A stretch of DNA of 53,798 nucleotides from Azolla caroliniana (lineage: Eukaryota; Plantae; Polypodiophyta). The translations under genes and the position numbers were made by a program. The stretch spans positions 1 through 53,798 of the forward strand of contig JBHGNT010000203.1 of NCBI GenBank assembly GCA_043228905.1, given 5' to 3'. Numbering within the stretch: the first letter of the stretch is position 1; each line of letters begins with the position of its first letter. This document shows positions 18,476 to 19,839 of this stretch, piece by piece. Under the pieces are notes generated by a model. It was not told the origin of the DNA. It made no database searches and saw only the letters and a program-made list of their open reading frames with translations.

Positions 18476-19839
18476 TCACTCACTCCTTTCAACTGTACAC
18501 CACAAAGAACCCTCGTGGCCAAATGGTTGGCTTTCAGGGTGAAGAATTTCACATAGTGTTTCCAAGGATTCCACAATTACGAAAGGGCTAGGCCTAGACA
18601 AAAACCGAGGTCCGTGTGCAATCACTAAGTGGAGAGAACGTGGGGAGGTTGTCGCGACTTCGAGGAGATTATCAAAGCGTTTGTCACAAAGCACATGGTC
18701 ATGCATTTGTTCCAAGTTCCAATGAGGGTTTTTTATGATAAGGATGAGCTTATGTAGCCATATGGGAGTTGTCGGATTCGGTGTGATTATAGAAGAGATG
18801 ATGGCATCAAGATGGAAAAAGCCTTTGTGCTCATCATCCACATATGTCATTTCACCCGCTACGAGGCTCACAAGATCCGACACCCAATCACCCATTGCAT
18901 GCTTCATACATTGGAAAAGGCTCCATTTCTCATCCCATTGCAAGCATAGCACCAACTTATTTTTCGATGATGACCTCCGGCCAACACACATCTCTATCAC
19001 TACATTTATCCTCGTTTCGAGGAGGCGAATCAGTTCTCGAGCATCCGATAAAAGTCTCCCATCGTTCTCGTTGGTTCTTAACAATTCTCGTGCGATTCTC
19101 ATGATGGTCACCTCCCAGATCCCTTCGAATTTGCATCTCACATCTATACACACCACTCGCACTTTCCTCCCTACAACGGCCTCCAATGCTCCCTCCACCG
19201 CCTCCACTCTCGCCCCTTCAGGAAGCTGTGGGTTCCCGCAACAACAATTTAGTTCCATGCACCACATTCTTCTTCTTCTTCTTCTTCTTCTTGTAGTAGA
19301 TTATGGAATGTGTGTGATTCTTAAAGAACATACATCCATGCATATATACATACATTTGCACACAAACACAGATATATGAATTACCTGTGTGATGATTAAG
19401 TCGGGTTTGAGTTCCACTAGCCTTGAAGGAAATATGCGATGTGAAGCACTGAGAAACCACTCCACAAGAACCGGATCCGCGAAGACCGACCCGAATTCAA
19501 TGTCGCACATAAGAGAGGGAATGACATTGGTAGCTATCGTCTCATCGATGCTACTCGATGAAAGGGTTCGGGATTCGGTGCATACTGCCAAGCCTTGGGG
19601 AAGCTCAACAAGCTCACACTTCATGAAATATGGAGGTCAAAGTGTATCAAAGACATTGGTCTCTCTGTCTCTCTCTGTCTCTCTCTCTCTCTATCTCAAA
19701 TCACTCTGATATGTATGGAATTGGAAGAGGGAAGACTTACAGAAGAATGGTCATGCGCCACAAGCAGATGAGTGCAGTTGATGGCTGCCATTACATCGCA
19801 GCCAACGGAGAGGAAGCTTGCCACTCTCGTCTTCTCCAT
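18476..19839 (-). CDS. BtuF-like Fe/B12 periplasmic-binding-protein (class III SBP) homolog, ~360 aa, no signal peptide. Exons 19839-19741, 19618-19385, 19225-18476
   Basis: Spliced protein MEKTRVASFLSVGCDVMAAINCTHLLVAHDHSS|CELVELP..SSSSIDE..RLVELKPDLIITQ|LPEG..LCLQW..GDWVSDLVSLVAG..RFLSRPSPFVIVESLETLCEILHPESQPFGHEGSLW. This follows, in order, the bacterial cobalamin-binding SBP pattern RIVSL..LVG.xHEC..SSxEID..LKPDLIITQ..LEW..GHWV..AG..FSRPGP..ESLEILAEILHP. Two phase-0 GT-AG introns. Confidence 0.8.

What the first reader, a model, noticed from the sequence alone, without database searches (positions are those of the whole stretch)
18476..19839. Spliced land-plant gene for a bacterial-type BtuF/cobalamin-binding periplasmic protein fold, with no signal peptide
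Seen: a three-exon, 360-aa frame; exon 1 is missing from the ORF track. An in-frame TAA 13 codons upstream excludes an N-terminal signal or transit peptide on this exon. Established: this motif order belongs to class III ABC substrate-binding proteins (BtuF/Fe-siderophore type), and flowering plants have no B12-dependent enzymes. Inference: either a retained algal/cyanobacterial relic or a domesticated horizontal transfer (introns show nuclear integration), now a stand-alone cytosolic binder or sensor of corrinoids, tetrapyrroles or metal chelates. It might monitor bacterial or cyanobacterial associates. It looks closer to the bacterial family than to what I recall of algal CBA1, but I cannot test that here.
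Basis: partly seen in the sequence, partly recalled or inferred. Interest (0 to 1): 0.8.

Follow-up and report, generated by a model that had tools for sequence, protein, structure and literature searches.

The report
Cytosolic BtuF-fold protein retained in ferns
This is a real, spliced plant gene, likely from a fern, for a protein predicted to fold like the bacterial vitamin B12- and haem-binding proteins; it was likely inherited from green algae rather than recently borrowed from bacteria, and since no B12-dependent enzyme was found in this genome and most of the ancestral cysteines are gone, it likely now holds a different metal or metal cofactor inside the cell.

Summary
The three-exon, 360-aa gene is real. 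Both GT-AG joints occur in 4 of 4 runs first laid, and variants are mostly synonymous (pN/pS about 0.25). Exon 3 and the Ceratopteris ortholog model as class III (BtuF/haem/siderophore) binding proteins; the fold does not identify the ligand.

It is not a recent transfer and not CBA1. It belongs to a green-lineage family (chlorophytes, streptophyte algae, a lycophyte, ferns; clade 100/100), databases label it only automatically, and 10 literature searches surfaced no paper on it. Its bacterial sisters already lack a signal peptide, mostly lack an ABC partner nearby, carry four near-invariant cysteines and sometimes sit under B12 riboswitches (4 of 76 loci). Algae keep two of these cysteines. 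Vascular plants keep one and share a new Cys14/His29 pair. No METH, MCM, CblB or FecCD permease was found in the genome.

Best reading: an ancestral cytosolic corrinoid carrier, likely repurposed in ferns for another metal or tetrapyrrole. No ligand is shown. A second family member in this genome is fused to an asparagine-synthase-like domain. Interest 0.5.

The parts
19741..19839 (-). Exon 1 (33 aa): start ATG, first strand and helix of the N-lobe; holds Cys14, His29, His31
   Evidence: exon 1-2 joint in 4 of 4 runs; residue numbers
19619..19740 (-). Intron 1, 122 nt, GT..AG, phase 0, with a GA microsatellite
   Evidence: skips 122, CT..AC on the + strand
19385..19618 (-). Exon 2 (78 aa): Cys34, Cys46, the subfamily's helical insert, and the strand ending at Thr110-Gln111
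19226..19384 (-). Intron 2, 159 nt, GT..AG, phase 0, with a GAA microsatellite
   Evidence: skips 159
18476..19225 (-). Exon 3 (249 aa plus TGA): end of N-lobe, long backbone helix, C-lobe and the conserved C-terminal tail
   Evidence: model pLDDT 89.7; Foldseek and VIA-align matches to class III binding proteins
19876..19878 (-). In-frame TAA 13 codons upstream of the ATG; closes the frame on this exon

Best explanation
This is an intact, spliced nuclear gene, likely of a fern, for a protein with no signal peptide that is predicted to have the two-lobed BtuF/haem-binding fold, likely stays in the cytosol, was likely inherited vertically from the ancestor of green plants, and likely carries a metal ion or metal-tetrapyrrole other than B12 through His/Cys ligands. 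Shown: gene structure, splicing, an excess of synonymous variants, family membership and tree position, and the pattern of cysteine loss. Inferred history: (1) the bacterial source was a leaderless four-Cys BtuF-like protein that likely receives corrinoids in the cytoplasm; (2) it entered the green lineage once, before chlorophytes and streptophytes split, and likely served B12 handling in algae; (3) algae lost the CxxC pair; (4) vascular plants, lacking B12 enzymes, lost the C-lobe Cys, evolved faster and fixed Cys14 and His29 beside the retained His31 and Cys34. Inferred mechanism: these N-lobe residues form a new metal site at the cleft edge, and the protein buffers or hands over its cargo to a cytosolic partner, with no ABC transporter involved.
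For: Splicing. Selection: 20 synonymous vs 17 non-synonymous among the 37 variant rows, pN/pS 0.25, binomial p 3e-5. Fold: exon 3, VIA Z 12.5 (rmsd 3.6, 204 aligned) to PhuT 2R79 and Z 11.2 (rmsd 5.2, 164) to BtuF 5M29; Ceratopteris ortholog, Foldseek E 5e-10 to both BtuF 1N4A and haem binders, Z 19.8/19.0/18.8 for 2R79/IsdE/BtuF. Tree: green clade 100/100, streptophytes 95/95, vascular plants 100/99, window with three fern-type rows 100/99 (bootstrap not fully settled). Bacterial sisters: a start codon within 14 residues of the first strand in 80 of 80 loci; ABC signature in 1 of 80 and FecCD motif in 0 of 80 by regular expression; the three Cys motifs in 78, 80 and 80 of 80. B12 ties: cobalamin riboswitch upstream on the same strand in 4 of 76 loci scanned; DUF6580 directly upstream in 6 and DUF71 in 4 among 127 neighbour frames; DUF71 was predicted to act in B12 salvage (PMC3541065, passages). 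Cys by group: bacteria 37/37 at all four; algae 14/14, 0/17, 0/17, 18/20; vascular plants 6/6, 0/6, 0/2, 0/9. Cys14 and His29 are invariant in the 6 vascular rows that cover them, and occur in 0 of 14 algal and 0 of 37 bacterial rows. Genome: no PF02965, PF02310, PF01642, PF01923 or PF01032 match; METE found at two loci as a control.
Against: No ligand or metal was tested. Model coordinates could not be inspected, so the closeness of Cys14/His29/His31/Cys34 is inferred from secondary structure only, and rests on 6 rows. Most bacterial sisters show no B12 context (72 of 76 scanned without a riboswitch), and 6 B12-context rows form one clade (L046, L054, L057, L061, L070, L074), so the ancestral corrinoid role may hold for a subgroup only. 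The best-kept residues across all groups lie in the C-terminal tail, not the cleft, which fits a scaffold role as well. Absence of B12 enzymes comes from exon-by-exon searches of a possibly incomplete assembly. The pN/pS pools alleles and relatives and treats sites singly. The fern rows are long branches.
Confidence: 0.5

Rival explanations
1. The pocket is dead and the protein is kept as a scaffold or adaptor that binds a partner through its conserved tail and green-specific surface residues.
For: Gly193-Arg194 is in 19/19 algal rows and all covering vascular rows but in 2/37 and 0/37 bacterial rows; Gln344 is in 20/20 algae and 0/37 bacteria; the tail (Glu333, Leu335, Glu337, Pro341, Trp353) is nearly invariant while three of four Cys are lost.
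Against: His31 and Cys34 are kept from bacteria to ferns, and Cys14/His29 were newly fixed, which a dead pocket would not need. No partner is known.
Confidence: 0.25
2. It still binds cobamides and acts as a cytosolic sink or sensor of microbial B12.
For: BtuF-like fold; B12 riboswitch, DUF6580 and DUF71 context of some bacterial sisters.
Against: No B12 enzyme found in the genome; three of four Cys lost and only 26% identity to the nearest bacterial type; no signalling domain; haem and siderophore binders match as well as BtuF; orthologs in plants without a known cyanobiont (recalled).
Confidence: 0.15
3. It is a decaying relic of algal B12 metabolism with little present function.
For: Long branches in vascular plants; no seed-plant or bryophyte name among the 13 organism-named clusters of 30 looked up.
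Against: Intact and spliced in several organisms, with a synonymous excess; open frames in a lycophyte and three named ferns.
Confidence: 0.07
4. It is a recent horizontal transfer from a bacterium or cyanobiont into this lineage, or a contaminant.
For: 44 of 151 cyanobacterial genomes searched hold the bacterial subfamily.
Against: Nested within ferns and green algae; introns; flanked by plant genes (XS-domain, PPR, HMA, UBP); a second copy on the 37-Mb contig C1.
Confidence: 0.02

Closest known systems
BtuF of E. coli and Vibrio cholerae (PDB 1N4A, 1N2Z, 5M29, 5YSC)
   Same: Predicted two-lobe, backbone-helix fold.
   Different: No signal peptide, no FecCD/BtuC permease found in the genome, 13-19% identity in the structural alignments; the Tyr of the loop after strand 2 of V. 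cholerae BtuF aligns with Glu in the bacterial sisters and Ser33 here.
Haem and siderophore binding proteins PhuT 2R79, ShuT 2R7A, IsdE 2Q8Q
   Same: Equal or slightly better structural matches than BtuF.
   Different: Exported ABC components; their haem ligands were not mapped onto this protein.
CBA1 of Chlamydomonas and Phaeodactylum and its land-plant homologues (PMC10828217, passages and section 10; PMC11439496, first part and passages)
   Same: A BtuF-like fold in the green lineage, kept in vascular plants that have no B12 enzymes; those authors suggest a new tetrapyrrole ligand.
   Different: CrCBA1 is modelled over residues 21-490, many homologues carry signal peptides, and it has WFE and FFNxE motifs; this protein is 360 aa, leaderless, and neither motif occurs in 86 rows. 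CBA1 homologues are reported in angiosperms; none was named here.
Unnamed leaderless four-Cys PF01497 subfamily of bacteria and archaea (NCBI label 'cobalamin-binding protein')
   Same: Direct sister group; leaderless; same helical insert and C-terminal tail.
   Different: Only one of four Cys kept; function untested in either; no paper on it found in my searches.
Database entries KAH7291818.1 (Ceratopteris), GBG82971.1 (Chara), GIM09502.1 (Volvox), KAJ7562508.1 (Diphasiastrum)
   Same: Orthologs, 26-37% identical; three are labelled 'Fe/B12 periplasmic-binding domain-containing protein' in UniRef.
   Different: Automatic labels only.

Membership tests
Class III (helical-backbone, PF01497) binding-protein fold | Two alpha/beta lobes joined by a long backbone helix | tested here: met
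   Exon 3 model and full Ceratopteris ortholog model match this fold at the top of Foldseek and VIA-align lists. The spliced protein itself was not folded.
Class III (helical-backbone, PF01497) binding-protein fold | PF01497 score above the gathering cut-off of 27.5 bits | tested here: inconclusive
   Single exons: no hit. The spliced protein was not scanned. Orthologs straddle the cut-off: P0047 28.9, Ceratopteris 23.3, Chara 31.2 bits.
BtuF (periplasmic B12 receptor of BtuCD-F) | N-terminal export signal | tested here: not met
   4-residue leader and upstream stop; no hydrophobic leader in 17 of 20 full-length green members where the motif could be located. Hydropathy only, no SignalP.
BtuF (periplasmic B12 receptor of BtuCD-F) | Cognate BtuC/FecCD permease in the genome | tested here: not met
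   PF01032: 0 matches in G000, control rang in 14 of 14 genomes; the assembly may be incomplete.
BtuF (periplasmic B12 receptor of BtuCD-F) | Aromatic cage Y50, W66, W85, F162, F168, W196 (PMC5269720, passages) | tested here: inconclusive
   Only partial alignments to V. cholerae BtuF were printed; two of its Tyr align with Glu and Ser of the bacterial sisters. Their match to E. coli numbering is recalled.
BtuF (periplasmic B12 receptor of BtuCD-F) | High-affinity cobalamin binding | not testable with these tools
   Needs a binding assay.
CBA1 | Conserved W394-F395-E396 and F214-F215-N216-x-E218 (PMC10828217 section 10) | tested here: not met
   Neither motif in the window protein or in any of 86 rows.
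CBA1 | Hit to the CBA1 HMM / listing among its 277 EukProt hits | not testable with these tools
   Supplement unreadable; no CBA1 sequence was on hand.
Leaderless four-Cys BtuF-like subfamily (bacteria, archaea) | Descent from the subfamily, with shared tail and no leader | tested here: met
   Bacteria-only HMM 67 bits vs at most 2.4 for shuffles; tree; tail residues.
Leaderless four-Cys BtuF-like subfamily (bacteria, archaea) | Four conserved cysteines | tested here: not met
   Only Cys34 kept.

The most novel reading that the evidence does not exclude
Green plants carry a second, undescribed BtuF-fold family beside CBA1: a cytosolic corrinoid chaperone of bacterial origin that is a missing intracellular step of B12 handling in green algae, and that lycophytes and ferns rebuilt into a His/Cys metal or tetrapyrrole carrier after B12 use was lost, with a sister copy fused to an asparagine-synthase-like enzyme that would act on the bound cofactor.
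Probability: 0.25. Interest if true: 0.75.

Novelty: new variant of a known kind. Interest (0 to 1): 0.5.

Why it matters
CBA1 is described as the only known algal B12 uptake protein (bioRxiv 10.64898/2026.08.07.738727, passages), and what happens to B12 inside algal cells is inferred mostly from human proteins (PMC11439496, first part). A leaderless BtuF-fold family present from Pyramimonas and Volvox to Chara gives a concrete knockout candidate for that gap. Its survival in ferns without B12 enzymes, with a stepwise change from four Cys to two to one plus new Cys/His, is a tractable case of a cofactor-binding protein outliving its cofactor. The surprise is moderate: a BtuF-like protein in B12-free plants is already in print for CBA1, and the orthologs carry automatic domain labels.

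Tried and rejected
Pfam and NCBIfam on single exons: no hit. ESM Atlas with exon 3: best 0.82, low recognition, uninformative; with the Chara ortholog only bacterial PF01497 clusters. Search for longer, fused relatives: none at E 1e-8 among 7992 candidates, weak evidence, and it missed the fusion found in this genome. No listed run is on record as RNA; no contig covered sequence upstream of about 19845 in the RNA-like runs, which shows nothing about the start. Donor: green plus cyanobacteria is not rejected (p-AU 0.62) but is not recovered with more cyanobacteria. P0160, first grouped as green, falls among cyanobacteria and was moved. Rows left out: P0022, P0124, P0121, P0002, P0027, P0029, P0152, P0165; one search used 18 green rows and left out the C11 copy. 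Placement of the C11 copy is unresolved (with the green clade at 89, open). Four Microcoleus loci (L027, L030-L032) were not scanned for riboswitches, and neighbour frames came from crude ORF calling, so context counts are lower bounds; L070 has a second PF01497 gene downstream that the motif test could not flag. Literature: 10 searches; none listed a paper on this family; four of them returned no paper and one more none; subscription papers are not covered. The CBA1 supplement and HGT tables of fern and algal genome papers were not seen and could list it. PMC139197 is not held. No complex prediction was run, since no binding partner is claimed.

Full report
Observation. On the minus strand, exons 19839-19741, 19618-19385 and 19225-18476 join at phase-0 GT-AG introns into a 360-aa frame with an in-frame TAA 13 codons upstream. 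Both joints are in contigs of 4 of 4 runs. In one search two further runs show the exon 2-3 joint only, and a probable DNA run shows neither. The tool only guesses that these runs are RNA. Among the 37 variant rows, 20 are synonymous and 17 are not, where about 23% of sites are synonymous (pN/pS 0.25, p 3e-5). This count pools alleles and relatives.

Setting. The window is all of contig C203 of a 523-Mb genome. Three 10-kb stretches of contig C1 match window 5013-40418 at 98-99.5%, so C203 is likely a second haplotype or homeolog. The C1 copy differs at 12 exon positions, 8 of them synonymous, and run X1 carries all 12; expression of the window's own allele is therefore not shown separately. 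Neighbours are ordinary plant genes and a LINE.

Fold. No single exon hits Pfam or NCBIfam. Exon 3 models at pLDDT 89.7, and its top matches are class III binding proteins: PhuT Z 12.5, BtuF Z 11.2. The Ceratopteris ortholog (37% identical) models at 86.4 and matches haem binders and BtuF about equally. The family profile gives the same mix in the PDB. The fold is well supported; the ligand cannot be read from it.

Family. A phmmer search of 1.84 billion representatives with exon 3 gave 41 hits. Of 30 looked up, 13 carry an organism: Ceratopteris, Diphasiastrum, Chara, Closterium, Spirogloea, Mesostigma, Volvox, Gonium, Bryopsis, Ostreobium (2), a pedinophyte and Pyramimonas. No seed plant or bryophyte was named, which is weak evidence of absence. 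The careful tree gives one green clade (100/100), streptophytes (95/95), vascular plants (100/99), and the window protein with Ceratopteris and Adiantum (100/99). The spliced protein scores 146 bits on an algal HMM and 67 on a bacterial one. I infer a single entry before the chlorophyte-streptophyte split, vertical descent, and a fern host. The donor is unresolved, although 44 of 151 cyanobacterial genomes hold the subfamily.

Bacterial sisters. In 80 GTDB loci the protein can start within 14 residues of its first strand in all 80. An ABC signature lies within the fetched flank (up to 5 kb) in 1 and a FecCD motif in none. Three Cys motifs, four Cys in all, are in 78, 80 and 80 of 80. So lack of a signal peptide is ancestral. 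A minority has B12 context: cobalamin riboswitches upstream in 4 of 76 loci, DUF6580 directly upstream in 6, DUF71 in 4, and a ribonucleotide reductase with a TSCPD domain in 1. L041 has DUF6580, a TonB receptor and DUF71 in a row, and L070 has two riboswitches and a separate second PF01497 gene. DUF71 was predicted to work in B12 salvage (PMC3541065, passages). Earlier unreviewed notes of this scan describe the same bacterial arrangement; they are leads, not support. I infer a cytoplasmic corrinoid receiver in at least part of the subfamily.

Pocket history. The four Cys are in 37 of 37 bacterial rows. Algae keep the first (14/14) and last (18/20) and lose the CxxC pair (0/17). Vascular plants keep only the first (6/6; last 0/9). 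Cys14 and His29 are invariant in the 6 vascular rows that cover them and absent from 14 algal and 37 bacterial rows, beside the retained His31 and Cys34. They sit at the start of helix 1 and the end of strand 2 in the ortholog model, which in this fold faces the cleft (established knowledge; distances not measured). The C-terminal tail and a green-specific Gly-Arg pair are the other conserved features.

B12 in the host. No METH (PF02965, PF02310), MCM, CblB or FecCD match was found; METE was found at two loci.

Comparison. It works like a class III binder in fold, but fails BtuF membership on export signal and permease, and fails CBA1 membership on both published motifs (PMC10828217 section 10). 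Sayer et al. already report CBA1 homologues in B12-free land plants and suggest a new tetrapyrrole ligand (passages). Dorrell et al. surveyed METE, METH and 11 further B12 proteins; 'BtuF' and 'fern' do not occur in their main text. Ten searches found no paper on this family; supplements were not seen.

Second member. PF01497 found another gene on C11. Its binding domain runs, within one 465-codon open exon, into an asparagine-synthase-like domain (Pfam E 6e-4, below cut-off; TIGR01536 E 0.003), followed by paired CxxC motifs and a hydrophobic C-terminal tail. It scores higher on the bacterial HMM (170 bits) than on the algal one (131). It echoes the bacterial pairing of the binding protein with the PP-loop enzyme DUF71, but it was not checked for expression or orthologs.

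Verdict. Observation confirmed; interpretation partly supported. It is a real, old, apparently undescribed cytosolic BtuF-fold family of green plants, here in a strongly remodelled fern form. I put about 0.9 on identity and history and 0.5 on the whole account, including a metal or tetrapyrrole carrier role. Interest 0.5; new variant of a known kind.

Noticed in passing
L004:3092-7627 (G000:C11, about 18,251,100-18,255,600, + strand): Second member of the same subfamily, fused in one open exon to an asparagine-synthase-like PP-loop domain, then paired CxxC motifs and a hydrophobic C-terminal tail that may be a membrane anchor. Its PP-loop has Ala where I recall Asp. Possibly more interesting than the window gene.
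   Followed up: partly
window 5013-40418 against L121-L123 (G000:C1:33.54-33.57 Mb): The window contig is 98-99.5% identical to part of C1: likely a haplotig or homeolog.
   Followed up: partly
window 18931-19121: Runs X1 and X10 each hold two contig variants here (2 and 8 differences), suggesting a second allele or homeolog.
   Followed up: no
window 21415-25334 (+): Divergently oriented multi-exon gene about 1.6 kb upstream; no Pfam hit on three exons; the last looks like an alpha/beta hydrolase start of SERAC1 type (recalled).
   Followed up: no
window 5510-5863, 13298-13831, 30320-32359, 40670-41392, 45783-46127: RING, XS-domain, PPR, HMA-domain and ubiquitin-protease exons.
   Followed up: no
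window 8250-11474 (+): LINE-type retroelement with endonuclease and reverse transcriptase, broken by stops.
   Followed up: no
L070:3315-9431: Acidobacterial locus: riboswitch, DUF6580, the leaderless four-Cys protein, a second riboswitch, a TonB receptor and a separate PF01497 gene.
   Followed up: partly
L017:7165-7384; L024:6828-7046 and 9391-9609: HEARO RNA matches near the gene in Microcoleus loci.
   Followed up: no
P0041: Algal member joined to Myb and Myb-CC domains; a single case, possibly a merged gene model.
   Followed up: no
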